DNA of 64,000 bases from Burkholderiales bacterium (GCA_038237415.1 JBBRYR010000008.1:25852-89851), one strand, 5' to 3'; shown: positions 8,741-33,450, counted from the first letter of the stretch. Notes: generated by a model not told the origin, from the sequence alone. Made by a program: numbers and translations.

Positions 8741-8745
8741 GGTGT

Positions 8746-9606: not shown

Positions 9607-9639
9607 AAAAGCGATGCCTTTTACCTAAGAGGGCATCAC
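9607..9639 (-). terminator. Weak hairpin/terminator after subunit 1
   Basis: On the minus strand: GTGATGCC-13 nt-GGCATCGC-TTTT, about 10 nt after the stop at 9650. Confidence 0.5.
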
Positions 9640-9649
9640 CTCTGTCACG

Positions 9650-13683: not shown

Positions 13684-14498
13684 CACCAAAAGCCCCCACG
13701 GCCCTGATTGCGGAAGACGAGCCCCTGCTGGCCGCGGCCCTGCAGGCTGAGCTGGCGCACGCATGGCCAGCACTGCAGGTGGTGGCCACGGTGGGCGACG
13801 GCGCCTCGGCCGTGCAGCAGGCGCTGGCCCTGCAACCTGACGTGCTGTTTTTTGATATTCGCATGCCCGGCATGGGCGGGCTGGAGGCCGCTGCCGAGCT
13901 GGCCGACCTGTGGCCCACGGCGCCCGCCGGTGGCTTGCCAGCGCGGCCCTTCCCCGCACTGGTGTTTGTGACCGCTTACGACCAATACGCCGTGCAGGCC
14001 TTTGAGGCCCAGGCGGTGGACTACCTGCTCAAGCCCGTACAAACCGCGCGCCTGCAGAAAACAGTGGCAAAACTGCAGCTAGCCCTCGCCAAACCTGCGC
14101 AAGCTGCTATGGATTTGGAAGCAACGCTGGGCCAGCTGCGCGGTTTGCTTGCGCCACCTCAGCCCGCTAACCCGCTGCTGAAAATGATTCAGGTCAGCGT
14201 GGGCAGTGCCATCCGCATGGTGCCGATGGACGACGTGGTGTACTTTGAAGCCGCCGACAAATACCTGCGCGTGCTCACCGCCGGGCACGAGTATTTGATC
14301 CGCACCCCCATCAAAGACCTGTTGCCCCAGCTCGACCCCCAGCTGTTCTGGCAAGTGCACCGGGGCACCGTGGTGCGGGTGGAGCAAATTGCCTCGGTAC
14401 ACCGCGACGAGGCTGGCAAAACCAGCGTCAGCCTGCGCGACCGCGCCGAGAAGCTGGCCGTGAGCCGCCTCTACGCGCATCTGTTTCGAGCCATGTAG
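13680..14498 (+). CDS. LytTR-family response regulator
   Basis: IAEDE, FFDIRMPG, FVTAYD, YLLKP receiver motifs; C-terminal LytTR FWQVHRGTVV; ATGA overlap with the kinase stop. Confidence 0.95.
   Translation: MTPKAPTALIAEDEPLLAAALQAELAHAWPALQVVATVGDGASAVQQALALQPDVLFFDIRMPGMGGLEAAAELADLWPTAPAGGLPARPFPALVFVTAYDQYAVQAFEAQAVDYLLKPVQTARLQKTVAKLQLALAKPAQAAMDLEATLGQLRGLLAPPQPANPLLKMIQVSVGSAIRMVPMDDVVYFEAADKYLRVLTAGHEYLIRTPIKDLLPQLDPQLFWQVHRGTVVRVEQIASVHRDEAGKTSVSLRDRAEKLAVSRLYAHLFRAM
14079..14123 (-). repeat. 45-bp repeat family A, antisense copy inside the regulator linker
   Basis: Reverse complement reads TGCTTCCAAATCCATAGC-AGCTTGCGC-AGGTTTGGC-GAGGGCTAG. Confidence 0.75.
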
Positions 14499-16376: not shown

Positions 16377-18203
16377 ATGAGCTCCCCAATACCTGCCTCC
16401 CCCGACACCACCCCCAAAGTCAGCAACTTTTTGCGCCAGATCATCGAAAAAGACCTGGCTGAGGGCACCTACGCCACCCGCCGCTGGGCCGGCAGCCCCG
16501 GCGACGCCGCCCACCACGCTGCGGGCCAGCCAGACCCCGCCAAAATCCGCACCCGCTTTCCGCCCGAGCCCAATGGCTACCTGCACATTGGCCACGCCAA
16601 AAGCATCTGCATCAACTTCGGCCTGGCGCGCGACTATGGTGGCGTGTGCCACCTGCGCTTTGACGACACCAACCCCGAAAAAGAAGACACCGAGTATGTG
16701 AACAGCATCATCGACGCGGTGAAATGGCTGGGCTTTGACTGGAACGGCAGCCCCGACGCACCGGCTTACCAGGCCAGCGACTACTTTGACTTCATGTACC
16801 GCGCAGCGGAGCATTTGATTCAAGCCGACCTGGCCTATGTGGACGAGCAAACCGCCGAAGAAATGCGCCTCAACCGGGGCGACTTTGGCAAGCCCGGCAT
16901 TGACAGCATCTTTCGCGGCCGCTCTGCGGCTGACAACCTGGCCCGCTTTCGTGAAATGCGCGACGGCCAACACGAAGACGGCTCCATGGTGCTGCGCGCC
17001 AAGATCGACATGGCCAGCCCCAACATCAACATGCGCGACCCGGCCATCTACCGCATACGCCGCGCCACGCACCACAACACGGGTGACACCTGGTGCATCT
17101 ACCCCATGTACACCTTTGCGCACCCCATTGAGGACGCGCTGGAGCAAATCACCCACAGCCTGTGCACGCTGGAGTTTGAAGACCAGCGCCCGTTTTATGA
17201 CTGGCTGATGGAGCGCCTGTGCGAAGGTGGCCTGCTGGCCGCACCTTCACCCAAGCAATATGAGTTTGCCCGCCTCAACCTGACCTATGTCATCACCAGC
17301 AAACGCAAGCTGGCGCAACTGGTGTACGACCACAAGGTCAACGGCTGGGACGACCCCCGCATGCCAACCATCGTCGGCCTGCGCCGCCGTGGCTACACGC
17401 CCGAGAGTCTGCAAATGTTTGCCGAACGCATAGGCGTGACCAAGAGCGACAGCTGGATCGACTACAGCACGCTGGAAGGCTGCCTGCGCGAAGACCTGGA
17501 GGCCAAAGCCCACCGTGGCATGGCCGTGCTGAACCCCGTGAAGCTGATCATGACCAACTGGGACGAGGTGATGGGTGCCGGCCACTTGGAGCCCTGCACC
17601 CAGCCCGCCCTGCCCCACCAGAACCATGAAGCGACGCATGGCGTCGCGGAAGGTGTTGAACCCGTAGTGCGCCACTTCACCATCGGCAAAGAGGTTTGGA
17701 TTGACCGCGAAGATTTTGAAGAAGTGCCACCCAAAGGCTACAAGCGCTTGTTCCCTGGCAACAAAGTGCGCCTGAAGGGCGGCTATGTGATCGAGTGCAC
17801 CGGCTGCACCAAGGATGCGAATGGCGTCATCACCGAAGTGCTAGCCACCGTGGTGCCCGACACCAAGAGCGGCACACCCGGCAGTGAGACCGTGAAGGTG
17901 AAAGCCGCCATCACCTGGGTGGGCGTGGCCAACGGCGTGAACGCCGAAGTGCGCATGTATGACCGCCTGTTTAGCGACGCCCAGCCCGACGCGGGCGGCA
18001 AAGACTTTATTGAGAGCTTGAACCCGAACAGCTTGAAGGTAGTGACGGCGATTGTTGAGCCTTCATTGGCAAACGCTCTACCGGACCAGAAGTTTCAGTT
18101 TGAGCGGCATGGGTACTTTGTGGCGGATCGGGTGGATCATGTGCAGGGCTCCAAGCCGGTGTTTAACTTGGCGGTGGGGTTGAAGGATAGTTGGGGGAAG
18201 TAG
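16377..18203 (+). CDS. glnS: Glutamine--tRNA ligase
   Basis: RTRFPPEPNGYLHIGHAKSIC (HIGH), TSKRKL (KMSKS equivalent), QFERHGYF; start at MSSP 16377. Confidence 0.97.
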   Translation: MSSPIPASPDTTPKVSNFLRQIIEKDLAEGTYATRRWAGSPGDAAHHAAGQPDPAKIRTRFPPEPNGYLHIGHAKSICINFGLARDYGGVCHLRFDDTNPEKEDTEYVNSIIDAVKWLGFDWNGSPDAPAYQASDYFDFMYRAAEHLIQADLAYVDEQTAEEMRLNRGDFGKPGIDSIFRGRSAADNLARFREMRDGQHEDGSMVLRAKIDMASPNINMRDPAIYRIRRATHHNTGDTWCIYPMYTFAHPIEDALEQITHSLCTLEFEDQRPFYDWLMERLCEGGLLAAPSPKQYEFARLNLTYVITSKRKLAQLVYDHKVNGWDDPRMPTIVGLRRRGYTPESLQMFAERIGVTKSDSWIDYSTLEGCLREDLEAKAHRGMAVLNPVKLIMTNWDEVMGAGHLEPCTQPALPHQNHEATHGVAEGVEPVVRHFTIGKEVWIDREDFEEVPPKGYKRLFPGNKVRLKGGYVIECTGCTKDANGVITEVLATVVPDTKSGTPGSETVKVKAAITWVGVANGVNAEVRMYDRLFSDAQPDAGGKDFIESLNPNSLKVVTAIVEPSLANALPDQKFQFERHGYFVADRVDHVQGSKPVFNLAVGLKDSWGK

Positions 18204-18254: not shown

Positions 18255-19142
18255 ATGACAGCAGAAATTTCTCTTCACTATGATGGTCCGATCGCGAAGG
18301 ATCACAAACTCTCATTGCGCGTGCTTGGCGGGGCACTTGACAACTTGCAGGGAGCCATTGACAGGGCAGTCATAGACGTCAAATACGGTAGTGTTTGGAA
18401 GCACGCGCGGCTGAAGAATTCTGATTACCCACTTGCGGAGTTTGACATCACGGGCTTCCGAGAAGGTGGCTTCATAGCCGACCTACGACAGTCGTTAAGT
18501 GGTCTAGGACCGGCCGTTCTGGACCGCGTGCGAAGTGCCCTGGTTCCCGGTCATGCCGCCGCGATTGCCGACGCAGGAGCTGTTTACGACAATCTTGCGA
18601 ATCAAGCGACTCTAAGGAAGCAAACTCTTGAAGCAGGCGCACTTGACGCCCCGGAATTTTCCCAATTCCTGAATGGGAGAAATGAAGAGATCAATGGGCA
18701 ATTCGGGGATCGAAGTATTCTTAAGGAAATCGATCAATTGCTAACGCCGATTCGCGCATCCGCTAACGCTGGCTCCACCCTAGAGATAACAATTACCACA
18801 GATGTGGCCAACACGGTCGTTCTTTTTGATCAGCGGATTGCCAAGAAATTTCATCGCGTTGTATCCACTAGGCGAATTGGAAACCCACTAACTATCTCCG
18901 CGCAAGTTAGATCGCTCAACCAAGGTAATAATTTTCAAGGCTCCAAAGGAAAGCTTGAGAACTTAGATACCGGTAGGGAATTCATACTGCACATTCCTAG
19001 CGAAGCCGCATTTAACTCGCTACTTCCATATTTGGAGAAAGGTGAGCAACAACAGACGATGGCGATTATTGCTTGTCCTGTACTGGAATACGAGAGCTTC
19101 GATCCTTATGGCGGTGATATGTACTTCCTAAAATTGGCTTAG
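18255..19142 (+). CDS. Hypothetical protein, AT-richer island (295 aa)
   Basis: Long ORF with RBS GGGAG; codon usage differs from the host; no motif recognised. Confidence 0.8.
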   Translation: MTAEISLHYDGPIAKDHKLSLRVLGGALDNLQGAIDRAVIDVKYGSVWKHARLKNSDYPLAEFDITGFREGGFIADLRQSLSGLGPAVLDRVRSALVPGHAAAIADAGAVYDNLANQATLRKQTLEAGALDAPEFSQFLNGRNEEINGQFGDRSILKEIDQLLTPIRASANAGSTLEITITTDVANTVVLFDQRIAKKFHRVVSTRRIGNPLTISAQVRSLNQGNNFQGSKGKLENLDTGREFILHIPSEAAFNSLLPYLEKGEQQQTMAIIACPVLEYESFDPYGGDMYFLKLA

Positions 19143-19145
19143 CCC

Positions 19146-19805
19146 ATGGAAATTCCAGAAGCGCTAAGTGACGCAGGTGCGGCGTATCTACAGGACATTC
19201 GTAGTGTCGTTCCTTTTTCGGCTTTGACTATCACGCTAGCTGCCCTTGTCTTGTCCCTCACCCGAGCGGCCAACGATTTCATCGAATCTGGAATTTGGAT
19301 TGTTGCCGGAGCTACTCCCATCGCCAAACTAACAAGCATCGACGGCGGCATTTGGACACATCTCAGTGTTCTGGATGCCCCACTTGCGTTCGCATGCGCA
19401 GGAGTTGCACTTTTGATAAGCAGCATTTACAGAAAAATCGTATTCTGGGCTCTGGCGTCATCGAAAGAATTTCGTCAACTTGAAGCGTCACAACACATCA
19501 AGATGAGCCTCGATACCAAGGAAGCGGAAAAACAGTTGAACTGGATAGACGGACAAATAGCAAAATCATTACCAAATCTCAAGAAAAAAGATATGGCGGC
19601 AGAACTACTCTGCGGCGTTGCTGCCTCGACCATTTTTTATGGAAATTTGGGAGCTATCGTTGATTTTTCCATTGTGATTGCGGCCTTGATTACGGCCTAC
19701 ATTTATGTCCAATCTTGCGCTAAGGACTATCTGACCACTGTCTACCCCTACTTCATGCTCAAGGCAAATTTGGCGGGACTCGTTCATCACGAGCCAAGGA
19801 GGTAA
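19146..19805 (+). CDS. Hypothetical multi-TM membrane protein (219 aa)
   Basis: 3 nt after the previous stop; about 4 hydrophobic segments with a central charged helical stretch. Confidence 0.75.
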   Translation: MEIPEALSDAGAAYLQDIRSVVPFSALTITLAALVLSLTRAANDFIESGIWIVAGATPIAKLTSIDGGIWTHLSVLDAPLAFACAGVALLISSIYRKIVFWALASSKEFRQLEASQHIKMSLDTKEAEKQLNWIDGQIAKSLPNLKKKDMAAELLCGVAASTIFYGNLGAIVDFSIVIAALITAYIYVQSCAKDYLTTVYPYFMLKANLAGLVHHEPRR

Positions 19806-19861
19806 GAGAAAAGGGGGCAGGCTCGACTTTCCAAGTATTTTGAAGGAGGGAATATAAATAA

Positions 19862-20578
19862 ATGGCAAAATTTCTAAACACCAGCGCAACCAACTACTTC
19901 CTTGAAGAGTTAATCAAGAGCGCGTCGGACCGGCTGATTCTGATCAGCCCATTCCTCAAACTTAACGACCGCATGAAAGAGTTGCTGGCGGATAAGAACC
20001 GGTTGAAGATTGATGTGCGCATTGTCTACGGCAAAAGCGAGTTGCAGCCACAAGAAATTGAATGGTTGCGCGGCCTGACCTACATCCGCACAAGTTTCTG
20101 CAAGAACCTGCACGCCAAGTGCTACATGAATGAAGAGATGTGCATCGTGACAAGCCTTAACCTGTATGAGTTCAGCCAGGTCAACAACAACGAAATGGGC
20201 ATTTTGATTCAACGCTCTGACGACAGCCAGTTGTACAAAGATGCTTACGAAGAAGCGCAACGCATCATCCGCATTAGTGACGAAGTGCGTATTTCGCTGG
20301 AGCGCGTTTCCAGTGAGCCCGACACAGTTGGCAAGGATGACGACAAAGGCGCGGATGACGCGGCAGCGACCGACAAGCTGACTTCCTCCAAGATCAGCCA
20401 GAAGTTAGGTTTAAAAACTGCCCAGTTTTTGGATCGGGCAACTGAGTTGGGCTATCTGGCCGCCGATGGCGAAAAGCACGTCATAACGCCCAAAGGTGAT
20501 AAGGCCGGAATTGAGTTTGTCGCCAAATCACGTTTTGGGCCGTACTTCTTGTGGCCACAAGATTTCCATTTGGCTTGA
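19862..20578 (+). CDS. PLD-superfamily (Nuc-like) protein with C-terminal wHTH-like domain
   Basis: LISPF, LHAKCYMNE (HxK), TSLNL, NNEMG motifs; RBS GGAGG. Confidence 0.85.
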   Translation: MAKFLNTSATNYFLEELIKSASDRLILISPFLKLNDRMKELLADKNRLKIDVRIVYGKSELQPQEIEWLRGLTYIRTSFCKNLHAKCYMNEEMCIVTSLNLYEFSQVNNNEMGILIQRSDDSQLYKDAYEEAQRIIRISDEVRISLERVSSEPDTVGKDDDKGADDAAATDKLTSSKISQKLGLKTAQFLDRATELGYLAADGEKHVITPKGDKAGIEFVAKSRFGPYFLWPQDFHLA

Positions 20579-20596
20579 TCCAACCAGACAAACACT

Positions 20597-21325
20597 ATGA
20601 GCTCAGAACTGTTTCCCTCCTTGATTAGTGGCGCAATTGCGATAGTGGCTGCAGGGATTGCCATTTGGGGGCAATTTAGGAACGTTCGAATAAATCATGA
20701 GTTCGAAAAGAGCAAACTGCAGGCTGAAGCCGAAAAAAATGTAGCGCGTTATAGCGAACCACTTGTTCGCGCTGCAGCTGATTTACAGAGTCGACTGTTC
20801 AATATATTGGCATTGAACTTTATCGATCGTTTCCTAGTCAACGGCAGCGCTCGAGAACGAAACTATGCCACTTTAAATTCAGCATTTCTATTTGCACAAT
20901 TCTTTGCTTGGACCGAAGCTACCCGTCAAGAAATTCAGTTTATCAAGCTCGACGGACACGAACAAACGCGAAAACTGTCAGAACTGCAAAGTAATATTTA
21001 CTCAATATTGCAAACCGATACATATACATCAGCATTTAGGGTATTCGCGGGTGAGCAGCGTGCGATTGGGGAAAAAATGCTGATACAAAGCCCGTTTGGA
21101 CTCAAATGCATGGGATATGGTGAATTCATTGCAAACGACGGATTTCCTAGCGACCCCCTGCTTAGTGCCCTTCATGACGACGTTAAAAACCTCAAAATGA
21201 ACAATGCAATTGCGGCCCCAAGGTTCATTGCGCTTCAAAACGCTCTTGTGGAGCTAATGGATTTCCTCGATCCGGACTATTTGCGCTTTCCTAAGGGAGA
21301 GCGCTTAAAGTATTCAGCCAAATAA
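20597..21325 (+). CDS. Hypothetical protein with N-terminal TM (242 aa)
   Basis: AT-rich ORF; TM at residues 8-26, then a helical domain (LFAQFFAWTEATRQEIQF, GEQRAIGE). Confidence 0.8.
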   Translation: MSSELFPSLISGAIAIVAAGIAIWGQFRNVRINHEFEKSKLQAEAEKNVARYSEPLVRAAADLQSRLFNILALNFIDRFLVNGSARERNYATLNSAFLFAQFFAWTEATRQEIQFIKLDGHEQTRKLSELQSNIYSILQTDTYTSAFRVFAGEQRAIGEKMLIQSPFGLKCMGYGEFIANDGFPSDPLLSALHDDVKNLKMNNAIAAPRFIALQNALVELMDFLDPDYLRFPKGERLKYSAK

Positions 21326-21352: not shown

Positions 21353-21766
21353 GTGCCCCTCTTGTCGGCCACGCTGGGCCAGCCCATCTTTGAGCCGCTG
21401 ACCAACGCACCCACGGCCAAGGGCGAAACGGAGCTGTTCTATTGCAAAGGCTCTGGCGCCGATGGCGTGGGCGAATACACCACCGAGGGGTTTGTGGTGC
21501 TCAAGGGCTCCGAAGGCCGCATTGAAAACGTAGCCTCCATTCAAGGCACATCCAACGTGCAGATTCGCGAGGCGCTGATGAAGGATGGCGTGATGGCCCC
21601 GCAAGACGGCCTGTACGTCTTCACCCGCAACCACCTCTTCCCCAGCCCCAGCCAAGCCGCCTTGGCGCTGATGGGCCGCTCCGCCAACGGCTGGGTGGAG
21701 TGGAAGGCCGCCAACGGCAAGACGCTGGATGAGTTGAAGCGCCAGGCTGTGGCAGCTGTTGGTTGA
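21353..21766 (+). pseudogene. DUF4357-like domain, probably the C-terminal remnant of a GIY-YIG-DUF4357 gene
   Basis: LGQPIFEPL, FVVLKGS, FPSPSQAA and GRSANGWVEWK motifs; GTG start without RBS; in-frame stop at 21329-21331. Confidence 0.65.
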
Positions 21767-21771
21767 TGATT

Positions 21772-21816
21772 TGCTACGTTTTTTGTAGCTGCTTGCGCAT
21801 ATTCCACGGGGGCTAG
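21772..21816 (+). repeat. 45-bp repeat family A, copy 1 of the island array
   Basis: TGCTACGTTTTTTGTAGC-TGCTTGCGC-ATATTCCAC-GGGGGCTAG, then AGGCC. Confidence 0.95.
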
Positions 21817-21862
21817 AGGCCAATTTGACACACCGATGGCTTGCTACGGTAAACTCAATTTC

Positions 21863-22153
21863 ATGCGCCCTTCCCAAGCCCTCCGCCAACACCGTGATGC
21901 CGTCTGCCTTGCTGCGGCGCGCCATCGCGTGGCGAACCCACGGGTATTTGGTTCCGCTCTGCGCGGGGATGACAGCGATGGCAGCGACCTGGACTTGTTG
22001 GTAGACCCTCTGCCAGGCACCACACTGTTCGATCTGGGCGGCCTGCAAGACGAGTTGCAAGAGTTGTTGGGCGTGTCGGTCGATGTGCTGACCCTCCAAG
22101 ACCTGCCGGTCAAGTTCCGCGATATCGTGGCCCAGGAAGCCCGGCCTGTATGA
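21863..22153 (+). CDS. mntA: Minimal nucleotidyltransferase antitoxin (MntA-like)
   Basis: GS-X10-DXD motif (GSALRGDDSDGSDLD); overlaps the HEPN gene by 4 nt. Confidence 0.9.
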   Translation: MRPSQALRQHRDAVCLAAARHRVANPRVFGSALRGDDSDGSDLDLLVDPLPGTTLFDLGGLQDELQELLGVSVDVLTLQDLPVKFRDIVAQEARPV

Positions 22154-22497
22154 CCGCAAACCGGTTGGCGGATTTTCTGGGCCACATGCGCCAGGCCATT
22201 GCCGATGCGCAATCGTTCACCGAAGGCGTGGCCCAGGCAGATTTCATGCAGGACAAGCGCACCCAGCAGGCGGTAGTGATGAGCCTCATCGTCTTGGGCG
22301 AAGCGGCCACCAAGGTGATGGATCAGCACCATGCCTTCGCCGCAGAGCACAGCCACATCCCCTGGCGCAGCATGCGGGGCATGCGCAACCGCATAGCCCA
22401 TGGCTACTTCGACATCAACTTGGAAGTAGTGTGGGACACGGTTCAGACGGCGCTGCCGGCTTTGAAGACACAGCTCGACGCATTGCCGTCTGTCTGA
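22150..22497 (+). CDS. hepT: HEPN RNase toxin (HepT/DUF86)
   Basis: IPWRSMRGMRNRIAHGYFDIN with the R-X4-H HEPN motif. Confidence 0.92.
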   Translation: MTANRLADFLGHMRQAIADAQSFTEGVAQADFMQDKRTQQAVVMSLIVLGEAATKVMDQHHAFAAEHSHIPWRSMRGMRNRIAHGYFDINLEVVWDTVQTALPALKTQLDALPSV

Positions 22498-22511
22498 TCT
22501 CAGCTTGTGAT

Positions 22512-22556
22512 TGCTACGTTTTTGATAGCTTCTTGTGCATATTCCACGGGGGCTAG
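22512..22556 (+). repeat. 45-bp repeat family A, copy 2
   Basis: TGCTACGTTTTTGATAGC-TTCTTGTGC-ATATTCCAC-GGGGGCTAG. Confidence 0.95.
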
Positions 22557-22563
22557 AGGCCTA

Positions 22564-23121
22564 TTACTTGCACCATTGCATTTCGCAAGGCACGCCGTCG
22601 CCGTTTCCGTCCATCTTTACGCCCGGGCAGTTAGCCAGAAAATACTTTGCCTCCTGGCAGGAGGTCATCTGCGTGCAATAGCGGCGGCCGTCGCATCTGA
22701 AGTTCGTTGGTGCGGGCGGCGGCTCCGGCAACAAAAGCTCAGCCTGCGCCGCGCGCATCTGTGCGGTGCGCTTGGTGTAGTGCTTGTACCCATACACACC
22801 CAGCGAAGCCAGTATCAACAGCAGTATGAGCTTGCTGCCAAAGCCGGTGCCGCTTGATGCGGGGTTGGCGGGCCTGGCAGAGCGCGGCGGCGTGGTGCGC
22901 GGTGCAGCTTGCACCCCAGGGCGGCTGACGCGCACGGCCTTCTTTTTGCCGTCGCGATCAGGTTCAATCTCAAAGCTGAGGCGTTCGCCTTCAGTCGGTG
23001 CAGCGCCGTCGCGGGCAAAGGCCGACACGTGGACAAAGATGTCCTGTCCGCCGTCGTCGGCCACAATAAATCCATAGCCGCGGTCAGCGTCCCATTTTTT
23101 TAGTTTGCCTTGGTAGCGCAT
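22564..23121 (-). CDS. Cold-shock-domain + TM + excalibur Ca-binding domain protein
   Basis: GKLKKWDADRGYGFI and IFVHVSAF (RNP motifs); TM; CDGRRYCTQMTSCQEAKYFLANCPGVKMDGNGDGVPCE. Confidence 0.9.
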   Translation of the reverse strand: MRYQGKLKKWDADRGYGFIVADDGGQDIFVHVSAFARDGAAPTEGERLSFEIEPDRDGKKKAVRVSRPGVQAAPRTTPPRSARPANPASSGTGFGSKLILLLILASLGVYGYKHYTKRTAQMRAAQAELLLPEPPPAPTNFRCDGRRYCTQMTSCQEAKYFLANCPGVKMDGNGDGVPCEMQWCK

Positions 23122-23161
23122 CTATTTTTACTCCCTTGCGGAGAATTATCGCCAAACTATC

Positions 23162-23206
23162 CGCTATGTTTTTGGTAGCTGCTTGCGCATATTCCACGGG
23201 GACTGG
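23162..23206 (+). repeat. 45-bp repeat family A, copy 3
   Basis: CGCTATGTTTTTGGTAGC-TGCTTGCGC-ATATTCCAC-GGGGACTGG. Confidence 0.95.
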
Positions 23207-23321
23207 AGGCTTATTTGATACAAAGTTTCCCGCGCGCGAGCCCCGGCAATCCCCCCACGGGTGTGCCACCACACAGACGGCGGCACGTTTCAGGCGTGCA
23301 ATGCAGATTTAGGAGCCCGCC

Positions 23322-23540
23322 ATGTCCCTGCACGCCACTATCCATCAACACGTGACCTACCGTCCCGGCGAAGGCGCTCCAATAGTCATTCCACCCGGCC
23401 CGGTGGAGGTGGACCTGAGCGCTGACAGCGCCACGCTTAGCTGGACCGAAACCAACGGCGCCGCAGGCCTGACGGCGATGCCGCTGGCGGAATACACCGA
23501 ATACGTGCGCCAGAAGCAGATCACGCCTGCCAAGGAGTGA
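23322..23540 (+). CDS. Small hypothetical protein (72 aa)
   Basis: RBS AGGAG at a normal distance; host-like codon usage; lies between repeat copies 3 and 4. Confidence 0.7.
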   Translation: MSLHATIHQHVTYRPGEGAPIVIPPGPVEVDLSADSATLSWTETNGAAGLTAMPLAEYTEYVRQKQITPAKE

Positions 23541-23560
23541 ACCCACCGCAGCGCCCTACT

Positions 23561-23605
23561 GGGCCGCACCCCTGCGGCTGCTTACGCATATTCCATGGGG
23601 GCTGG
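23561..23605 (+). repeat. 45-bp repeat family A, copy 4 (5' hairpin replaced)
   Basis: The 3' part GC-TGCTTACGC-ATATTCCAT-GGGGGCTGG is conserved; the 5' 18 nt form a different hairpin, GCCGCA-CCCC-TGCGGC. Confidence 0.8.
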
Positions 23606-23676
23606 AGTCACTTTTTCTAACTGTGCGCCAATCGAACGCAATTAGAACCAATATCCTAAAAAATTGTTTCTTGTAT

Positions 23677-23704
23677 TTGACAAATTTGTATATTTGTAAA
23701 TAAT
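23677..23704 (+). promoter_or_regulatory. Sigma70-like promoter overlapped by an inverted-repeat operator
   Basis: TTGACA at 23677, AATAAT at 23699; inverted repeat TTGACAAAT-6 nt-ATTTGTAAA (1 mismatch). Confidence 0.6.
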
Positions 23705-23714
23705 AAGAAACACA

Positions 23715-24230
23715 ATGATTCAAAATACACGCAATTCGGACGATACCGGCGCACTGCAGTTGCAAGCGCTTGGCGCGCAGATTCGTGCCCAACGCAAGGC
23801 GTTGCGCCTAAGCGCCACGGTCACCGCCGAGGCCGCGGGCATGTCACGGGTAACGCTGCACCGCATTGAGAAGGGTGAGCCATCGGTGACTATGGGCGCC
23901 TGGTGCAGCGCGATGGCGGCGCTGGGTATGGCGGTGCAGGCGACCATGCCAGCGAACGAGCGTGCGTCCACCGCGCAGCCGCCAGACGGTGCGGGCTGGA
24001 TTCCGGCGCGTGTGGCGCTGGCCCACTACCCGCAGTTGCGCGCGCTGGCGTGGCAGGTGCAGGGCACTGACACCCTCACCCCTTCTGAGGCGCTGGACAT
24101 TTACGAACGCAATGCGCGGCATCTGGATTTGCAGGCCATGTCTGCGGATGAACAGGCCTTGCTGCAGGCATTGCCGCTGGCCTTGTCGCGCAAGCCTCTC
24201 GCCGCAGGAGGTGATGGCAATGCAGTTTGA
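23715..24230 (+). CDS. XRE/HTH regulator, probable type IV antitoxin
   Basis: IRAQRKALRLSATVTAEAAGMSRVTLHRIEKGEPSVT HTH; overlaps the AbiEii gene. Confidence 0.85.
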   Translation: MIQNTRNSDDTGALQLQALGAQIRAQRKALRLSATVTAEAAGMSRVTLHRIEKGEPSVTMGAWCSAMAALGMAVQATMPANERASTAQPPDGAGWIPARVALAHYPQLRALAWQVQGTDTLTPSEALDIYERNARHLDLQAMSADEQALLQALPLALSRKPLAAGGDGNAV

Positions 24231-24933
24231 ACGCCCGCACCACCAGCGCATTGCCCATGTGCTCAGCGCCTTGGATGGCGCCATCCTGCGCCAACACAGT
24301 TGCCTGTTTGGCGGCGGCACCTGCATTGCACTGCGGTATGGCGAATACCGAGAGTCGGTGGATATTGACTTTTTGGTGTCCGACGCGGCGGGCTACCGCG
24401 AGCTGCGGCAACTGCTCACCACGTCTGCGGGCCTGGCGCCCATCACGCACGCGCATGCGATGCCTTTGGTGGCGCTGCGCGAGATCCGGGCCGACCAATA
24501 CGGCATTCGCACCATGGTGCAAATGGATGGGCAGGCCATCAAGTTGGAAGTCGTGCGCGAAGCCCGCATTACGCTGGAGCCGCCCGCAGCCGACGACACC
24601 ATTTGCGGCGTAAGCACGCTCACCCGCCTGGACTTGGCCACATCCAAGCTATTGGCCAATTCCGACCGACAAGCCGACGACGGCGTGTTCAGCCGCGATG
24701 TGATTGACCTGGCCATGATGGGCCTGCCCCTGCCCGCGCTGCGCGCCGCGCTGGCCAAAGCCGAGCAGGCCTATGGCGCCAGCGTGGCGCGAGATTTGGG
24801 CAAAGCCATAGACCGACTTCAAAACCGCCAGGGCTGGCTGGAGCGCTGCATGCAAGTGATGGCCATGCAGTTACCCAAGGCGGTGTTGTGGCAAAAAGTG
24901 CGGGCACTGCGGCGCATCGTGCCTGAGAGTTAA
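24220..24933 (+). CDS. AbiEii/AbiGii-family nucleotidyltransferase toxin
   Basis: FGGGTCIAL, YRESVDIDF, SKLLANSDR, RDVIDL; RBS GGAGG. Confidence 0.9.
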   Translation: MQFERPHHQRIAHVLSALDGAILRQHSCLFGGGTCIALRYGEYRESVDIDFLVSDAAGYRELRQLLTTSAGLAPITHAHAMPLVALREIRADQYGIRTMVQMDGQAIKLEVVREARITLEPPAADDTICGVSTLTRLDLATSKLLANSDRQADDGVFSRDVIDLAMMGLPLPALRAALAKAEQAYGASVARDLGKAIDRLQNRQGWLERCMQVMAMQLPKAVLWQKVRALRRIVPES

Positions 24934-24941
24934 AGTCGGTT

Positions 24942-24986
24942 TGCTACGTTTTCAATAGCTGCCTGCGCATATTCCACGAGGGCTAG
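24942..24986 (+). repeat. 45-bp repeat family A, copy 5
   Basis: TGCTACGTTTTCAATAGC-TGCCTGCGC-ATATTCCAC-GAGGGCTAG. Confidence 0.95.
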
Positions 24987-25018
24987 AGGTCTATCTGTTA
25001 CATAATTTGGCAATCACC

Positions 25019-25345
25019 ATGCCCCGCCGCAAGCACCACCACGTCTACGTGGTCGAACTCTCCCCAGACGTACTCTTTGAGCCGCGCTTTCGCAAGAGCA
25101 ACCCGGGCTACATCGAAGGCAAGCCCTGCGTCTACGTGGGCATGACGGGCCTGGACCCGGACGTGCGCTTTGACAAGCACAAGGCCGGCATCCAGGCCAA
25201 CCGCTATGCGCAGCAATACGGTCTGCGGTTGCTGCCCGATCTGTATGAGGCCTTCAACCCCATGCGCTATGAGGATGCCGTGGACAAGGAGATTGAAATC
25301 GGCATTGACCTGCGCTCAGCCGGGTTTGGGGTGTGGCAGGCCTGA
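25019..25345 (+). CDS. Minimal GIY-YIG-like protein (108 aa)
   Basis: HVYVVEL ... CVYVGMTG ... RFDKH ... E pattern. Confidence 0.65.
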   Translation: MPRRKHHHVYVVELSPDVLFEPRFRKSNPGYIEGKPCVYVGMTGLDPDVRFDKHKAGIQANRYAQQYGLRLLPDLYEAFNPMRYEDAVDKEIEIGIDLRSAGFGVWQA

Positions 25346-25376
25346 GAGGCTAGGCCTGTTCCAGGGGGGCTAGGCC

Positions 25377-25925
25377 TCAGACCGGGCCGGTGTGCTCGCC
25401 GCGGGCCGGGTAATCGACCTTGACGGCGAAGTCCACCGCACCCAGCAGGTCCTGAAACGCGGGGCGGGCAAAGGGCATGGTCTGCGCGGCGCCGTAATAC
25501 AGGGTGCCGTCTGGGCGCACGATGTAGACGGCGGGTTCGCTAAAGAGGGCGGGCTCTTCAATTCCGATCGATGTTTTGCCGCGCGAGGTGCTGATGTACA
25601 GGCCCCACTCGCGGGCGCTGCGCAGGCTCAGGCCGTAGCCAAACTTGACCGCTTTGGCGCTGACCTTGTCGGCCATTTGCTGGGCGCGGTCGGCATCGTC
25701 GCTGCTCACGGCCACCACTTGCACGCCACGGGCGGCAAACTCGGGGGCCAGGCGCTCCAGTTCAAGCAGGTATTTGGCGCAGAGGGGGCAATGCAGGCCC
25801 CGGTAAAACACCACCATGTCAAACAGACTACCGGGCTGGGCACCCAGTACAAAGCGGTCGCCGGTGGTGAGTGCCACGTTAAGGGCGGGCACGGGGTAAC
25901 GGGGCATGAGGGCGGCAACGCGCAT
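25377..25925 (-). CDS. Peroxiredoxin-like AhpC/TSA-family redoxin
   Basis: VVFYRGLHCPLC (CxxC), FSEPAVYIV. Start may be 25907. Confidence 0.9.
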   Translation of the reverse strand: MRVAALMPRYPVPALNVALTTGDRFVLGAQPGSLFDMVVFYRGLHCPLCAKYLLELERLAPEFAARGVQVVAVSSDDADRAQQMADKVSAKAVKFGYGLSLRSAREWGLYISTSRGKTSIGIEEPALFSEPAVYIVRPDGTLYYGAAQTMPFARPAFQDLLGAVDFAVKVDYPARGEHTGPV

Positions 25926-26004
25926 GGGGTGTCTCCTGATAAAAACCTATTTTGCAGTACTATTTGCAATCATTCATTCAACAAGTTTTGCAATTCATAC
26001 AAAA

Positions 26005-26850
26005 ATGGATGCTCCCACCAAACTCGATCGCCTGTCGGCGCTACTGCAGGGCTTGGCGCCGCGTGTCACGCTGGCGGCCCCTGCCCCGCTGGGTGCTGAA
26101 CCCGGCACTGCCACCAACACGAGCAGTGCCACCCGCGCCTGGCCCGCCGTGGCCGGGCCGCAGCTGCATCTGCATGTGCTGGACAACCAAGAGGTGCAGT
26201 TGCAAGCCCATGGCCTCACCCGCACGGTGTGCGGGCCCGCGTTTTGGCTTTGCCGTGGCGACACGGCCCATGCCATTCACGCAGCCAGTGCGCAGGCGCT
26301 TGGCGCCGTGCTGTCGGCCACCGTGCAGTTTGACGGTGCGGCGGCGCCGCTGTTGCTGGCCGAGTTTGCCCAGCCCCGGCTGGTCATGCTGAACGCCTCC
26401 GACACCTTGCTCAGTCAGTTGATTGCGCTGGTGCGCAGCGAGCTGCAGTCGCCACGCTGCGGCCAGCCCGCCTTGCTCAACCATGCGGGGGACATGCTGT
26501 TCATCGGTGTGTTGCGGCATTTGGTGGCACAGCCTGCGGCGCACGGCGGCCTGTTCAACGGTTTGGCGGACCCGCGCATCGCCAGCACGCTGGTGGCCAT
26601 GCACGAGGCCCCGCATCTGGACTGGACGCTGGCCTCGCTGGCGCAGCGCGCTGGCATGTCGCGCACTGCTTTTGCCGTGCGCTTTAAAAACACCGTGCAG
26701 CAGCCACCGGGCAAATACCTCAGCAGCTTGCGCTTGCAAATCGCGCAGCGCAAGGTGCAGTCCGGCCAGGGCCTGAAGGCGGCGGCCCGCGCGGCGGGTT
26801 ATGCCAATGTGTCGGCCCTGTCCAGGGCGCTGGGCAAAATGCCGGGCTGA
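26005..26850 (+). CDS. AraC-family regulator (cupin-type, RclR-like)
   Basis: WTLASLAQRAGMSRTAFAVRFK, GYANVSALSRA; divergent from the redoxin gene. Confidence 0.9.
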   Translation: MDAPTKLDRLSALLQGLAPRVTLAAPAPLGAEPGTATNTSSATRAWPAVAGPQLHLHVLDNQEVQLQAHGLTRTVCGPAFWLCRGDTAHAIHAASAQALGAVLSATVQFDGAAAPLLLAEFAQPRLVMLNASDTLLSQLIALVRSELQSPRCGQPALLNHAGDMLFIGVLRHLVAQPAAHGGLFNGLADPRIASTLVAMHEAPHLDWTLASLAQRAGMSRTAFAVRFKNTVQQPPGKYLSSLRLQIAQRKVQSGQGLKAAARAAGYANVSALSRALGKMPG

Positions 26851-26858
26851 TTTCCCCG

Positions 26859-28220
26859 TTAAGGCAAGCTGCGCGTCGGCGTGCGCATGGTCACCAGCTC
26901 TTCTGCTGCGGTGGGGTGCACGGCCAGGGTGGCGTCGAGCGCGGTTTTGGTGACCTGCATTTGCATTGCCACGCCCATGAGCTGGGCCATTTCACCGGTG
27001 TCGGGGCCTATACCATGAAAGCCCACGACGCGGTCGGTGCTGCGGTCCACCAACAGCTTGAGCAGTGTTTTGGAGTGGTGGCCTGACACGGTGGCTTTTA
27101 GCGGGCGAAAGCTGGTGCTGTACACGTCCAGCTGCGGGTGGCGTTTGAGGGCCTGCTCTTCGGTCAAACCCACCGTGCCGACCTCGGGGGTGGTGAACAC
27201 GCCGGTGGGAATCAAGGTGTAGTCCACCGAGCGCGGGCGTTTGTCAAACACGGTGTCGGCAAAGGCATGGCCTTCGCGAATGGCCATGGGGGTGAGGTTG
27301 ATGCGGTGGGTCACATCGCCCACGGCGTAGATGCCCGCCGCGGTGGTTTGTGAAAACGCGTCCACGGTAATGGCACCCTGCGCGTTCAAAGCAACGCCTG
27401 CATTTTCCAGGCCCAGGTCGTGGGTAAAGGGGGCGCGCCCGATGGCGCGCAGCACGCAGTCTGCCGCCAGTGTCTGGCCGTTGTCCAGCAGCACATCCAA
27501 CCCTGCAGCGGCCCGGGCCACCGCCTTCACTTCGCGCCCGAAGTGAAATTGCATGCCGTTGGCTGCGAGTTCACCGGCCAGGTGTTTGCGGGTTTCGTCG
27601 TCAAACCCCCGCAAAATTTGATCGCCCCGCACCACCACGTGCACGGTTGCCCCCAGCAGTTGCAGCACGCAGGCGAGCTCCAGCGCAATGTAGCCCGCGC
27701 CCTGCACCACCACCTGTTTGGGCATGTGTTCCAGGTCAAAAAAACCGTTGGAGTCGATGGTGAGCTCGCTGCCGGGGAACGACGGCCCGTTGACCGGTGT
27801 GCCGCCAGTGGCAATAAGGATGTGGCGTGTGGAAAGTTGTTGTCCGTCAGACAGTGCCACGGTGGTGGCATTGGCCAGACGCGCGCGGCCCGCAAAAATG
27901 TGGACCCCGGCTTTCACCAGATTGCTGCGGTAAATGCCCTCCAGGCGCGCCACCTCCGCGTCGCGGCGGGTTTTAAGGGCACTCCAGTCAAAGCGCTTTT
28001 CCCCCAGGGACCAGCCAAAGCCGTGCGCTTCCTCAAATTCCTGGGCAAAGCGCGAGGCATAGACCATCAACTTCTTTGGCACGCAGCCCCGAATCACGCA
28101 GGTGCCACCCATGCGGTATTCCTCCACCAGGGCCACTTTGGCACCGTAGCCCGCCGCAATGCGCGCCGCGCGCACGCCACCAGAACCACCGCCAATGACT
28201 ACCAGATCAAATTCGTTCAT
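26859..28220 (-). CDS. gor: Glutathione-disulfide reductase
   Basis: GGGSGG, GGTCVIRGCVPKK redox disulfide, VHPTAAEE C-terminal motif. Confidence 0.95.
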   Translation of the reverse strand: MNEFDLVVIGGGSGGVRAARIAAGYGAKVALVEEYRMGGTCVIRGCVPKKLMVYASRFAQEFEEAHGFGWSLGEKRFDWSALKTRRDAEVARLEGIYRSNLVKAGVHIFAGRARLANATTVALSDGQQLSTRHILIATGGTPVNGPSFPGSELTIDSNGFFDLEHMPKQVVVQGAGYIALELACVLQLLGATVHVVVRGDQILRGFDDETRKHLAGELAANGMQFHFGREVKAVARAAAGLDVLLDNGQTLAADCVLRAIGRAPFTHDLGLENAGVALNAQGAITVDAFSQTTAAGIYAVGDVTHRINLTPMAIREGHAFADTVFDKRPRSVDYTLIPTGVFTTPEVGTVGLTEEQALKRHPQLDVYSTSFRPLKATVSGHHSKTLLKLLVDRSTDRVVGFHGIGPDTGEMAQLMGVAMQMQVTKTALDATLAVHPTAAEELVTMRTPTRSLP

Positions 28221-32072: not shown

Positions 32073-32972
32073 TCAGTGACGCGGCACGCGCACCCGTAGC
32101 ACCTGCGCGGGCAGCGCGGGGTCAGCCGGGTCGGTAACCAGTGTCACCAGCCAATCCGTATCGTCGGCCTGCGCGGCAATGCCTTCCACCTGGGGGGCGC
32201 CTTGCAGCTGGTAGACGGTGCCCAACTCGCCTGCGGCGGACACCAGCCCAATGGAGGAGCCGATGCAGGGGCCGTATTGCCCGTTGGCCTCCACGCGCTG
32301 GGCCACGGCGCAAAACATCCACGCCCCGCCTTCCAGCGCCGTAGCATCGGTGATGCTCAGGGGCACGCCGCTGACGTTGCCCAGCGGCAGCTTCTGCACG
32401 CTTTTGGCGGGGGGTGGCAGTGGCTGCAGGCCCGCCAGCCACGGGGCCATTTTGTTCCAGTCGTAACGGATGCAGGTGCTTTGCCCTCTGCTGCCCCGCT
32501 GCAGCAGGATCAGTTCGTCGCTGACAACCAGCGCGCCTTCAATGTTCAGGTCATCCATTTTTTTGCGCAAGGGCGCATAGAGCGGGGCCAGGTTAACGCT
32601 GGCCATGCGGCCGTTGGGCGCGCCCTGCACGTCCAGCACCGCCAGAACACCGGTGTCGTTATTTCGTGTGATTCCAGAGCCCAGCGCCAGCAGCGCGCCC
32701 GCGGGGCAACCCGGCAGTGGCGGCAGAAGGGCCAGGGTTTCCAGAGGGCTCCCCAGCAGGGGCATCAGGGTGCCCGGGGCGGCTTCATCAAACAGTCCCA
32801 GATGCACGGCTTCGTCGGCCACCACCACAAAGCGGCGCCCCCTACGCACCAGTCCGCTGGCCGCGCTCAGGTGACTTGGGTGGGCTTGTACACCGGCTTG
32901 GTGCGGGGCATTGACCAGCAGGTGTTGAATGAAAACGGGTTGCAGGGCGGAGTTGGGTGTGGTGTTTGCCAT
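32073..32972 (-). CDS. DUF6929/DUF3616-like beta-propeller-type hypothetical protein
   Basis: HLSAASGLV, LNIEGA, QVEGI, TDPADP motifs; start MANTTPN. Confidence 0.7.
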   Translation of the reverse strand: MANTTPNSALQPVFIQHLLVNAPHQAGVQAHPSHLSAASGLVRRGRRFVVVADEAVHLGLFDEAAPGTLMPLLGSPLETLALLPPLPGCPAGALLALGSGITRNNDTGVLAVLDVQGAPNGRMASVNLAPLYAPLRKKMDDLNIEGALVVSDELILLQRGSRGQSTCIRYDWNKMAPWLAGLQPLPPPAKSVQKLPLGNVSGVPLSITDATALEGGAWMFCAVAQRVEANGQYGPCIGSSIGLVSAAGELGTVYQLQGAPQVEGIAAQADDTDWLVTLVTDPADPALPAQVLRVRVPRH

Positions 32973-33030: not shown

Positions 33031-33450
33031 TCAGGCGTCAGGCAGGATTGCCGATGGCGCTGGAAGTCTGGATTCAGACTGTACCGAGCGCGTCGCGTAG
33101 TGTCTGTAGCCATACCAGGCCATCGCACTGATGAGTGCAACGCTGATGACTATTCCCAGGTAGCCTGACGTTTGCACATCCCTGCGATTGCGCTGCACTC
33201 TGCGCAGCGGCGCTGCTGCACTGGCCAGATGCGCAGCGCTGGTGCGGCGCACCCGCACCGCACGCTTATTGCCATCGCGGTCGGGCTCCACTTCAAATGA
33301 CAAGCGATCACCAATCAGGGGCAACTGACGATCGCGCGCAAACACTGAAATGTAGAAAAATAGTTCCTGCCCGTCATCGTCCGCAGCAATAAACCCAAAA
33401 CCGCGGTCGGCGTGCAACGTCTTCAAGGTGCCATCAAACCTCAATGCCAT
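33031..33450 (-). CDS. Cold-shock-domain + TM protein (paralog of 22564-23121 without excalibur)
   Basis: GTLKTLHADRGFGFIAADDDGQELFFYISVF ... LSFEVEPDRDGNKRAVRV; TM; then stop. Confidence 0.8.
   Translation of the reverse strand: MALRFDGTLKTLHADRGFGFIAADDDGQELFFYISVFARDRQLPLIGDRLSFEVEPDRDGNKRAVRVRRTSAAHLASAAAPLRRVQRNRRDVQTSGYLGIVISVALISAMAWYGYRHYATRSVQSESRLPAPSAILPDA

What the first reader, a model, noticed from the sequence alone, without database searches (positions are those of the whole stretch)
21772..25345. Repeat-delimited cassette array of TA/defence modules (integron-like logic without attC)
Seen: five same-orientation copies of a 45-bp element (21772, 22512, 23162, 23561, 24942). 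Every interval holds exactly one self-contained module: MntA-HepT, CSD-excalibur, a 72-aa ORF, XRE-AbiEii; a mini GIY-YIG follows the last copy. The element has a 5' hairpin (GCTAY-N-RTAGC), and in copy 4 a different hairpin occupies that position. Elsewhere in the window the element is sparse (41244, 52124), again beside accessory genes. Inference: the repeat acts as a recombination or insertion site for gain, loss and shuffling of modules, by RecA or a trans-acting enzyme not in the window. It is not CRISPR (intervals 0.4-1.4 kb) and has no attC core sites.
Basis: partly seen in the sequence, partly recalled or inferred. Interest (0 to 1): 0.8.

Follow-up and report, generated by a model that had tools for sequence, protein, structure and literature searches.

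The report
Repeat-bounded toxin-antitoxin cassette array
Downstream of glnS in this Rhodoferax genome, small toxin-antitoxin and defence modules sit one per slot between copies of a genome-wide 68-base repeat, and close relatives gain or lose modules at that repeat, so an ordinary dispersed repeat works here as the junction of an integron-like cassette array.

Summary
Five same-strand copies of a repeat (E) delimit MntA-HepT, CSD-Excalibur, a 72-aa ORF and XRE-AbiEii, ending at a 108-aa GIY-YIG-like gene.

Corrections:
- E is about 68 nt, not 45.
- E is not sparse. The 3.9 Mb genome has about 470 copies, about a quarter of them in frame inside ORFs.
- Its neighbours are not enriched for small genes.
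- The hairpin has no covariation or folding support.
- The "mini GIY-YIG" is a core Comamonadaceae gene.

The interpretation survives its own test. The glnS-to-GIY interval is a hotspot across Rhodoferax, with E-bounded cassettes of one or two genes. In contigs 93-97% identical to the window:
- one hybrid E replaces E1-MntA-HepT-E2-CSD-E3;
- XRE-AbiEii is absent, and that indel ends at the first base of E5;
- homology to another variant starts at the first base of E1.

An empty site (DUF924-E-DUF6929) and an occupied site (E-MntA-HepT-E) exist in other species.

The enzyme is unknown. Short-homology recombination fits best. A dedicated enzyme, for example the single-copy RAYT-like transposase, is not excluded. 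A true integron lies elsewhere in the genome and uses different attC sites. I rate this a new variant of known repeat-bounded cassette systems.

The parts
21353..21766 (+). C-terminal remnant (137 aa) of a GIY-YIG/DUF4357 nuclease gene. It forms the left flank of the array in this strain.
   Evidence: Pfam DUF4357, E 1.3e-21. Full-length relatives are about 290 aa with a GIY-YIG domain plus DUF4357 (protein 3). The close relative L102 has DUF924 here instead, and homology to it starts exactly at E1.
21768..21835 (+). E1, a full copy of the 68-nt dispersed repeat.
   Evidence: nhmmer 68 bits; CM 75.8 bits. Homology to L102 begins at 21768.
21863..22153 (+). MntA-type nucleotidyltransferase antitoxin. 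The conserved ATG is at 21863; the longest ORF starts at 21836.
   Evidence: Pfam NTP_transf_2 / Polbeta. The four-species alignment shows a conserved start and upstream TTGACA-N19-TAAACT.
22150..22497 (+). HepT (HEPN) RNase toxin.
   Evidence: Pfam HepT-like, E 3.1e-29.
22509..22576 (+). E2, a full copy.
   Evidence: nhmmer 55.9 bits. Its 3' end overlaps the stop region of the convergent CSD gene.
22564..23121 (-). CSD-Excalibur protein (185 aa).
   Evidence: Pfam CSD, E 1.7e-14, and Excalibur, E 8e-10. The same cassette occurs between E copies in other Rhodoferax arrays (family f21).
23158..23225 (+). E3, a full copy.
   Evidence: nhmmer 61.3 bits. It shares a 27-nt identical run with E1. 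Contig L103 carries an E1/E3 hybrid.
23322..23540 (+). 72-aa ORF of unknown function.
   Evidence: No Pfam or NCBIfam hit. A 71-aa product is called in the same place directly upstream of the GIY-like gene in close relatives L102-L107, within DNA 93-95% identical to the window.
23559..23621 (+). Hairpin GGGCCGCACCCCTGCGGCTG of the 72-aa gene, fused at a GCTG microhomology to E4'. E4' (23577-23621) is a copy lacking its 5' third.
   Evidence: nhmmer 33.4 bits, model positions 24-67. The alignment with L104 and L102 shows the hairpin predates the XRE-AbiEii insertion.
23715..24933 (+). XRE-family antitoxin (23715-24230) and AbiEii nucleotidyltransferase toxin (24220-24933).
   Evidence: Pfam HTH_31, E 1.8e-11, and AbiEii, E 3.6e-21. 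The pair is absent from six close relatives, and the indel 23581-24939 ends at the first base of E5.
24939..25006 (+). E5, a full copy.
   Evidence: nhmmer 61.1 bits. Homology to L102-L107 resumes at 24940.
25019..25345 (+). 108-aa GIY-YIG-like core gene. It is the conserved right anchor of the hotspot.
   Evidence: 83-94% identical across Rhodoferax, Acidovorax, Hydrogenophaga, Curvibacter and Ottowia. Weak Pfam GIY-YIG hit in an orthologue. Single copy in this genome.
16377..18203 (+). glnS, the conserved left anchor of the hotspot.
   Evidence: Pfam tRNA-synt_1c. The glnS-to-GIY synteny holds in most of the 80 loci.
25347..26867 (.). AhpC-like and AraC gene pair. It is a strain-specific indel just past the array and is not bounded by a full E; only a degenerate E-like core lies at 25354-25373.
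   Evidence: Absent from L102-L109. The degenerate core is repeat family D3. nhmmer finds no E at that site in L104.

Best explanation
E is an old, abundant, non-palindromic 68-nt dispersed repeat of Rhodoferax and some other Comamonadaceae. In the conserved glnS-to-GIY interval, direct copies of E are the junctions between small self-contained TA and defence modules.

Modules are lost by recombination between two direct E copies, which leaves one hybrid E. Modules are gained as [E + module] units that recombine into a resident E, which duplicates it. This produces a same-orientation array whose content differs between species and near-strains.

Shown: the array anatomy, its presence across the genus, and indel and homology breakpoints that fall in or at E. 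Inferred: the enzymology. I think host homologous or short-homology recombination is most likely, including homology-facilitated illegitimate recombination after DNA uptake. TA addiction and defence benefit would then favour retention of the modules.
For: (1) Near-strain contigs, 93-97% identical to the window:
- L103 carries one E whose left flank matches the E1 flank and whose right flank matches the E3 flank. Its 5' bases match E1 and its 3' bases match E3.
- E1 and E3 share the longest identical run of any pair in the array, 27 nt.
- XRE-AbiEii is missing from L102-L107. Homology stops at 23580 and resumes at 24940, the first base of E5.
- L102 matches the window from 21768, the first base of E1, onwards, while the upstream genes differ (D).
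- Identity steps from 81% to 94% across L103's E.

(2) Empty and occupied sites in other species. L058 has DUF924-E-DUF6929. L057 has DUF924-E-MntA-HepT-(DUF924 tail)-E-DUF6929.

(3) Generality:
- 37 loci carry two or more E copies in the hotspot.
- 54 of 76 E-to-E segments hold one or two genes, and the median spacing is 896 bp.
- 52% of gaps of 40 nt or more hold an E, against 13% genome-wide.
- The same cassette families (MntA-HepT, NTase-HEPN-like, CSD-Excalibur, ParE, Zeta, Mrr, NYN) recur in different orders.

(4) The array's E copies form a local subfamily. This argues for duplication of E with each insertion rather than independent transposition.

(5) Signs of general rather than site-specific recombination:
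- Some arrays repeat longer units, a DUF924 3' tail of up to 140-245 bp plus E.
- E4' is truncated at a 4-bp microhomology.
Against: - Adjacent E copies usually share only short perfect identity: median 13 nt, with only 5% of pairs reaching 25 nt. That is poor substrate for RecA.
- In about 20 of 27 arrays the repeated boundary is E alone. E also keeps invariant positions. Both would fit recognition by a specific protein.
- E sits where genes end anyway, so some coincidence of breakpoints with E is expected. HSP ends within 30 nt of an E make up 27% against 6.9% for random positions, but no control against E-free intergenic gaps was possible.
- The set of arrays was selected for having two or more E copies.
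Confidence: 0.6

Rival explanations
1. A dedicated trans-acting enzyme cuts and joins at E, so E-to-E segments move as cassettes in a true integron analogue. The best candidate is the single-copy RAYT-like HUH/Y1 transposase at C16:51962-52657, acting on single-stranded E and using the small 5' hairpin.
For: - The array copies are strictly in direct orientation, and in most arrays the boundary is E alone with little perfect identity.
- E has invariant bases, and the GCTAY-N7-RTAGC inverted repeat is conserved.
- One RAYT-like gene per genome occurs in 24 of 25 Rhodoferax genomes. It scores 77.9 bits on NCBIfam REP_Tyr_transpos against a cut-off of 80.
- A degenerate E abuts its 3' end in this genome.
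Against: - The RAYT-like gene is present in 49 of 51 genera of the family, including about 30 with no E, so there is no informative co-occurrence.
- No E lies near its orthologues in L020 and L021.
- The hairpin has no covariation or stability support.
- The repeats that include a DUF924 tail and the microhomology truncation of E4' look like general recombination.
- E orientation is not tied to the replication strand, unlike IS200/IS605 elements: 57% of adjacent pairs share orientation, and the correlation with GC skew is rho -0.24, p 0.13.
Confidence: 0.2
2. E is simply a mobile or once-mobile selfish repeat that lands at gene ends. The hotspot is dense in short operons and tolerant of insertions, so E piled up there independently of how the modules arrived.
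For: - E is genome-wide and sits tight against stop codons, a median of 9 nt away.
- It fills 42% of convergent gaps but only 7% of divergent gaps.
- Genome-wide spacing is close to Poisson.
- Neighbouring genes are ordinary in size.
Against: - A single hybrid E stands where two E copies flank modules in a near-strain, and empty versus occupied sites differ by exactly module plus one E.
- The array's E copies are a local subfamily: none of 5000 random sets is as similar.
- In G014 the repeated unit extends 140 bp beyond E, which shows segmental duplication.
Confidence: 0.12
3. E is a cis-acting functional element, such as an insulator, a protein-binding site or an mRNA-end element, that each module carries for its own expression. 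The array pattern would then reflect function rather than recombination.
For: - E stays linked to the 5' side of the MntA-HepT modules across species, and its 3' end supplies a TTGAC(A) that lies 19 nt upstream of a conserved TAAACT.
- The invariant core is maintained across hundreds of copies.
Against: - About a quarter of copies lie in frame inside ORFs.
- The scan found no promoter or terminator at any E in the array.
- There is no Rfam family, no stable fold and no covariation.
- Modules on either strand are bounded alike.
Confidence: 0.08

Closest known systems
Sedentary chromosomal integron cassette arrays (IntI / attC), e.g. the Vibrio superintegron with VCR repeats
   Same: Same-orientation repeats separate one- or two-gene cassettes. 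The arrays are rich in TA modules, their content varies between relatives, and they sit at a fixed chromosomal site.
   Different: - E has no attC architecture and no GTTRRRY core.
- No integrase or attI is adjacent.
- At least the XRE-AbiEii cassette has its own promoter-like site, and one cassette is on the opposite strand.
- E is also scattered about 470 times through the genome, including inside genes.
- The genome's real integron (IntI 446 bits) uses unrelated attC sites on other contigs.
REP / BIME / REPIN elements with RAYT transposases, and REP-mediated rearrangements (tandem duplications joined at REPs; from my own knowledge, Shyamala et al. 1990; Bertels and Rainey, PMC3116915)
   Same: Hundreds of short dispersed copies are enriched at gene 3' ends and inherited vertically. 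The genome has a single-copy RAYT-like gene. The repeats act as recombination join-points.
   Different: E is 68 nt and not palindromic, is not arranged in inverted doublets, lies in frame inside ORFs in about a quarter of cases, and does not reliably flank the RAYT gene.
Acinetobacter pdif modules (XerC/XerD-site-bounded resistance and TA modules on plasmids; from my own knowledge)
   Same: Discrete TA or accessory modules are bounded by short recombination sites, shuffled between contexts, and carry no recombinase of their own.
   Different: pdif sites are 28-bp XerC-spacer-XerD sites in alternating orientation on plasmids. E shares only TGCGCATA with a dif XerC arm, has no XerD arm, and its array copies are direct and chromosomal (searches found no dif-like structure).
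Neisseria minimal mobile elements and NIME/dRS3 arrays (from my own knowledge)
   Same: A hotspot between conserved genes holds alternative cassettes that are exchanged by transformation and homologous recombination, and arrays are punctuated by a short repeat.
   Different: Minimal mobile elements (MMEs) use the flanking core genes as homology. In NIME arrays the repeat-bounded units are non-coding. Here each repeat-bounded unit is a coding module.
Rickettsia palindromic elements (RPE; from my own knowledge, Ogata et al. 2000)
   Same: A dispersed repeat is tolerated in frame inside protein-coding genes, and at least one such site (XdhA) keeps the same length in most Rhodoferax species sampled.
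   Different: RPEs are 100-150 bp palindromic elements of Rickettsiales and are not known to bound cassette arrays.
Beta-proteobacterial repeat element BRE (Hot et al. 2011, PMC3110155)
   Same: It is reported in Comamonadaceae, including Rhodoferax, mostly in intergenic regions, with some copies inside coding sequences.
   Different: BRE is about 90 bp with 69% GC, often occurs in tandem, and has only 4 copies in R. ferrireducens. E is 68 nt with about 47% GC, is not tandem, and has hundreds of copies. No BRE sequence was available for a direct comparison.

Membership tests
Integron cassette array | Adjacent intI integrase with attI | tested here: not met
   The IntI match (TIGR02249, 446 bits) is on contig C89, not in the window. 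No recombinase recurs next to the arrays in 37 loci.
Integron cassette array | attC sites: imperfect inverted repeats R''-L''...L'-R' with a GTTRRRY core | tested here: not met
   By reading its sequence, E has no such cores. Its fold is no better than shuffles (z 0 to -0.9). The genome's real attC sites share no similarity with E and occur only on C89 and C108.
Integron cassette array | Cassette indels bounded precisely by the repeat | tested here: met
   E1/E3 hybrid in L103; the XRE-AbiEii indel ends at the first base of E5; empty and occupied sites in L058 and L057.
REP / REPIN-RAYT | Short (20-40 nt) imperfect palindrome forming a stable hairpin | tested here: not met
   68 nt. It has only a 5-bp stem, with no covariation beyond shuffles and no excess stability.
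REP / REPIN-RAYT | Extragenic location | tested here: not met
   126 of 470 copies are robustly inside ORFs, with coding signal in the same frame on both sides.
REP / REPIN-RAYT | Inverted doublets (REPIN/BIME) | tested here: not met
   Only 6 pairs lie closer than 500 bp, and 57% of adjacent pairs share orientation.
REP / REPIN-RAYT | Cognate single-copy RAYT flanked by the repeat | tested here: inconclusive
   A single-copy RAYT-like gene is present. One degenerate E lies at its 3' end in this genome, and none lies near the orthologues in L020 and L021. The gene is also present in genera without E.
MITE | Terminal inverted repeats and target-site duplication | tested here: not met
   No flanking k-mer duplication beyond the element's own conserved TTG motifs. 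By reading the consensus, I see no TIR.
RPE-like in-frame selfish repeat | Copies read through in frame inside real genes | tested here: met
   HrpA-like, XdhA-like and other long ORFs keep coding potential in the same frame on both sides. The XdhA copy lies in the interdomain linker. Whether it adds residues relative to outgroups was inconclusive.
Xer/dif (pdif-like) modules | 28-bp XerC arm - spacer - XerD arm site at module boundaries | tested here: not met
   Only TGCGCATA resembles a XerC arm. Two scans of the genome for a canonical dif site found none, and the one candidate that lies next to an E copy is not a convincing dif site. E itself shows no XerD arm by reading its consensus.

The most novel reading that the evidence does not exclude
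E-to-E segments are mobilised by a dedicated enzyme that recognises E, for instance the domesticated RAYT-like HUH transposase acting on single-stranded DNA. Rhodoferax would then carry an integrase-free 'HUH integron' that uses a genome-wide repeat as a universal docking site for TA and defence cassettes.
Probability: 0.18. Interest if true: 0.9.

Novelty: new variant of a known kind. Interest (0 to 1): 0.64.

Why it matters
This finding shows how defence and TA modules can be stockpiled and swapped at a fixed chromosomal site without an integrase, a transposon or a prophage. The only requirement is a short dispersed repeat that the genome already carries in hundreds of copies.

If the pattern is general, interspersed repeats are an overlooked scaffold for defence-island turnover. 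They would also be a practical marker for finding small unknown modules, such as the 72-aa ORF or the 135-aa partner of the NTase cassette.

The locus also gives a clean natural system with empty, occupied and hybrid sites. It can be used to ask whether about 25 nt of shared sequence is enough for cassette exchange in the wild, or whether domesticated RAYT-type enzymes have a role in cassette movement.

Tried and rejected
- Known RNA family: no Rfam match at the gathering threshold or at E <= 1.
- Structured RNA or ssDNA: RNAalifold gives almost nothing. The named hairpins show no covariation above shuffles. Folding z is between 0 and -0.9.
- Transposon-like ends: no TSD and no TIR.
- Promoter or terminator function: the scan finds only the XRE module's own promoter and nothing at any E.
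- dif/Xer site: no dif-like site found, and E has only a partial XerC-like half site.
- Replication-strand bias as the reason for the uniform orientation: rejected genome-wide. The +:- ratio of 150:3 within 10 kb of the GIY gene across loci is best explained by shared ancestry and local duplication, and those counts are not independent.
- Enrichment of E next to small or accessory genes genome-wide: absent.
- Co-occurrence of E with the RAYT-like gene across the family: uninformative.
- Identity with the published BRE repeat: unlikely, given GC content and copy number.
- Part of the genome's integron: rejected.
- Insertion status of the intragenic copy in XdhA against a solved homologue: inconclusive, because the region is a linker of similar length.
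- My first GC3-based gene finder mis-called the array region and was replaced.

Full report
**What is there.** Window 21768-25006 holds five + strand copies of one repeat, which I call E. E1 is at 21768, E2 at 22509, E3 at 23158, E4' at 23577 and E5 at 24939.
- The 25-nt core never occurs in 100 shuffles.
- The intervals hold MntA (NTP_transf_2) with HepT, a minus-strand CSD-Excalibur gene, a 72-aa ORF with no family, and an XRE HTH protein with AbiEii. A 108/112-aa ORF follows.
- Upstream lies a 137-aa DUF4357 remnant, then a low-GC (about 48%) island that includes a PLD-like gene, then glnS.

**What the repeat really is.** An information profile over all copies shows conservation across about 68 nt, not 45. 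The consensus is TTGCTATnAATTTaATAGCTGCTTGCGCATATTCCACGGGGGCTAGAGGCCnATTTGaC.
- A profile search finds 470 copies in the 3.89 Mb draft genome, 365 of them at 30 bits or more, split evenly between strands.
- Genome-wide spacing is close to Poisson, and this array is the largest cluster.
- With a codon-usage gene caller of my own, intergenic copies hug gene 3' ends. The median distance from the upstream stop is 9 nt. E occupies 42% of convergent gaps but only 7% of divergent gaps.
- 126 copies lie robustly inside long ORFs and are read in frame, with coding signal continuing on both sides. Examples are an HrpA-like helicase and XdhA.
- Each strand of E has one open frame.
- Genes flanking E are not unusually small: 10.2% are under 130 aa against 11.8% overall.
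- E has no Rfam match, no consensus fold, no covariation in the GCTAY/RTAGC stem beyond shuffles, no excess ssDNA stability, and no TSD or TIR. It supplies no promoter or terminator in the array.
- The family is abundant in 19 of 51 sampled genera of the bacterial family and absent from the rest.
- E is thus an old dispersed repeat that fits neither the REP/REPIN, MITE nor attC definitions. It behaves somewhat like Rickettsia RPEs.

**The locus across relatives.** Record titles identify the genus as Rhodoferax.
- The 'mini GIY-YIG' gene is 83-94% identical across Comamonadaceae genera, so it is a core gene. glnS and this gene bracket a conserved interval.
- The simplest state, seen in G010 (L017), L058 and three further loci (L053, L057 and L071) with extra cassettes between DUF924 and DUF6929, is glnS - DUF924 - E - DUF6929 - GIY - E.
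- Many Rhodoferax genomes instead carry arrays of E copies. The maps show [E] MntA HepT [E], [E] NTase+partner [E], [E] CSD-Excalibur [E], and cassettes with ParE/antitoxin, Zeta-toxin, Mrr, NYN and YHS domains.
- 54 of 76 E-to-E segments hold one or two genes. The median spacing is 896 bp.
- 52% of gaps of 40 nt or more in these arrays hold an E, against 13% genome-wide. The array set was, however, selected for having two or more E copies.
- The same pattern occurs elsewhere in this genome. Two small two-gene, TA-like modules sit between what look like hsdS and hsdR of a type I R-M operon, each bounded by a same-strand E. These annotations come from reading the translations.

**Do indels end in the repeat? 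Yes.**
- Metagenome contigs that encode the identical GIY protein are 93-97% identical to the window.
- L103 has a single E. Its left flank is the DUF4357 end, as at E1, and its right flank matches the E3 flank. Its 5' bases match E1 and its 3' bases match E3. It therefore differs from the window by exactly E-MntA-HepT-E-CSD (A).
- E1 and E3 share the longest identical run of any pair in the array, 27 nt.
- Identity jumps from 81% to 94% across that E.
- L102 and L104-L107 lack XRE-AbiEii. Homology stops at 23580 and resumes at 24940, the first base of E5 (B).
- E4' lacks its 5' third. It is joined to the pre-existing hairpin of the 72-aa gene at a GCTG microhomology. The left join was therefore illegitimate, or was followed by a small deletion.
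- L102 matches the window from the first base of E1 onwards, while carrying DUF924 rather than DUF4357 upstream (D).
- Between species, L058 (DUF924-E-DUF6929) and L057 (DUF924-E-MntA-HepT-tail-E-DUF6929) give an empty and an occupied site that differ by one module plus one E.
- HSP ends between arrays fall within 30 nt of an E four times more often than random positions do.
- The array's E copies are more alike than any random set. This fits duplication of E with each insertion.

**Mechanism.** Three observations point to general recombination.
- Some arrays repeat units longer than E. In G014, up to 140 bp of the DUF924 3' end plus E plus the MntA leader is repeated at about 90% identity. 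L040 has three DUF924 copies. Extended repeats occur in about 6 of 27 arrays.
- E4' is truncated at a microhomology.
- The E1/E3 hybrid involves the pair with the longest identity.

Against this, most adjacent E pairs share only about 13 identical nt, and E keeps invariant positions. A protein that recognises E is therefore not excluded.

The single-copy RAYT-like gene (C16:51962-52657) scores 77.9 bits on NCBIfam REP_Tyr_transpos against a cut-off of 80, and occurs once per genome in 24 of 25 Rhodoferax genomes. It is the obvious candidate. However, it is present in 49 of 51 genera whether or not they have E, and its orthologues are not flanked by E.

I put about 0.6 on E-by-E short-homology recombination, including homology-facilitated illegitimate recombination. 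I put about 0.2 on a dedicated enzyme and the rest on the two remaining rivals.

**Relation to integrons.** The genome does carry a real integron integrase (446 bits, contig C89) with two attC-like repeats beside it and two more on C108. These repeats are unrelated to E and absent from the window. The array is therefore an analogue of an integron, not a member of that family.

**Limits.**
- Gene calls outside the window come from my own script.
- Orientation counts across loci (150:3) are not independent events.
- The direction of each indel, gain or loss, is not resolved.

Noticed in passing
genome-wide; in the window 13611-13674 (+) and 14063-14126 (-): About a quarter of E copies (126 of 470) lie in frame inside long ORFs, with coding signal on both sides. 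Examples are an HrpA-like helicase (C1:115692), the XdhA linker (C5:81891) and a two-component pair in the window. At the XdhA site, most sampled Rhodoferax species (about 11 of 18) carry a segment of exactly the same length.
   Followed up: partly
genome contig C89:1-2190 and C108:1369-3249 (outside the window): A bona fide integron integrase (TIGR02249, 446 bits) has about 100-bp attC-like repeats beside it, and one E copy sits inside the first cassette. A second, broken intI fragment with two attC sites lies on C108. In relative G010 the intI lies only about 25 kb from the glnS-GIY hotspot.
   Followed up: partly
genome contig C16:51962-52657 (outside the window): A single-copy RAYT-like HUH/Y1 transposase (231 aa) sits just upstream of a 1604-aa ORF that I take, from reading its translation, to be gltB. 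It is conserved in 49 of 51 genera of the family. A degenerate reverse E abuts its stop codon.
   Followed up: partly
genome contig C3:36790-39348 (outside the window): What look like a type I R-M hsdS and hsdR (annotated by reading the translations, not tested) are separated by two small two-gene modules that resemble RelE/HigB-type and Phd/YoeB-type TA pairs. Each module is bounded by a same-strand E, making a second E-bounded cassette array.
   Followed up: partly
window 25347-26867: The AhpC-like and AraC pair right after the GIY-like gene is absent from all eight near-identical metagenome contigs. That indel is not bounded by a full E; only a degenerate E-like core lies at 25354-25373.
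   Followed up: partly
window 18255-21325: A low-GC (about 48%) island lies between glnS and the array. It holds a 295-aa plus 219-aa pair, a PLD-like gene and a 242-aa ORF. Relatives carry GmrSD/HEPN or Schlafen-AlbA genes at the same place.
   Followed up: no
L040 (Rhodoferax MAG) 426-10001; L043: One array holds three DUF924 copies, each followed by E. Another holds two copies of the GIY-like core gene. Core genes next to E therefore also get duplicated as cassettes.
   Followed up: no
window 33079-33444 (-) and 32073-32972 (-): A second CSD paralogue (43% identical to the array's CSD-Excalibur) sits next to a DUF6929 homologue. In relatives DUF6929 lies directly upstream of the GIY gene, which suggests a local rearrangement in this strain.
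   Followed up: no
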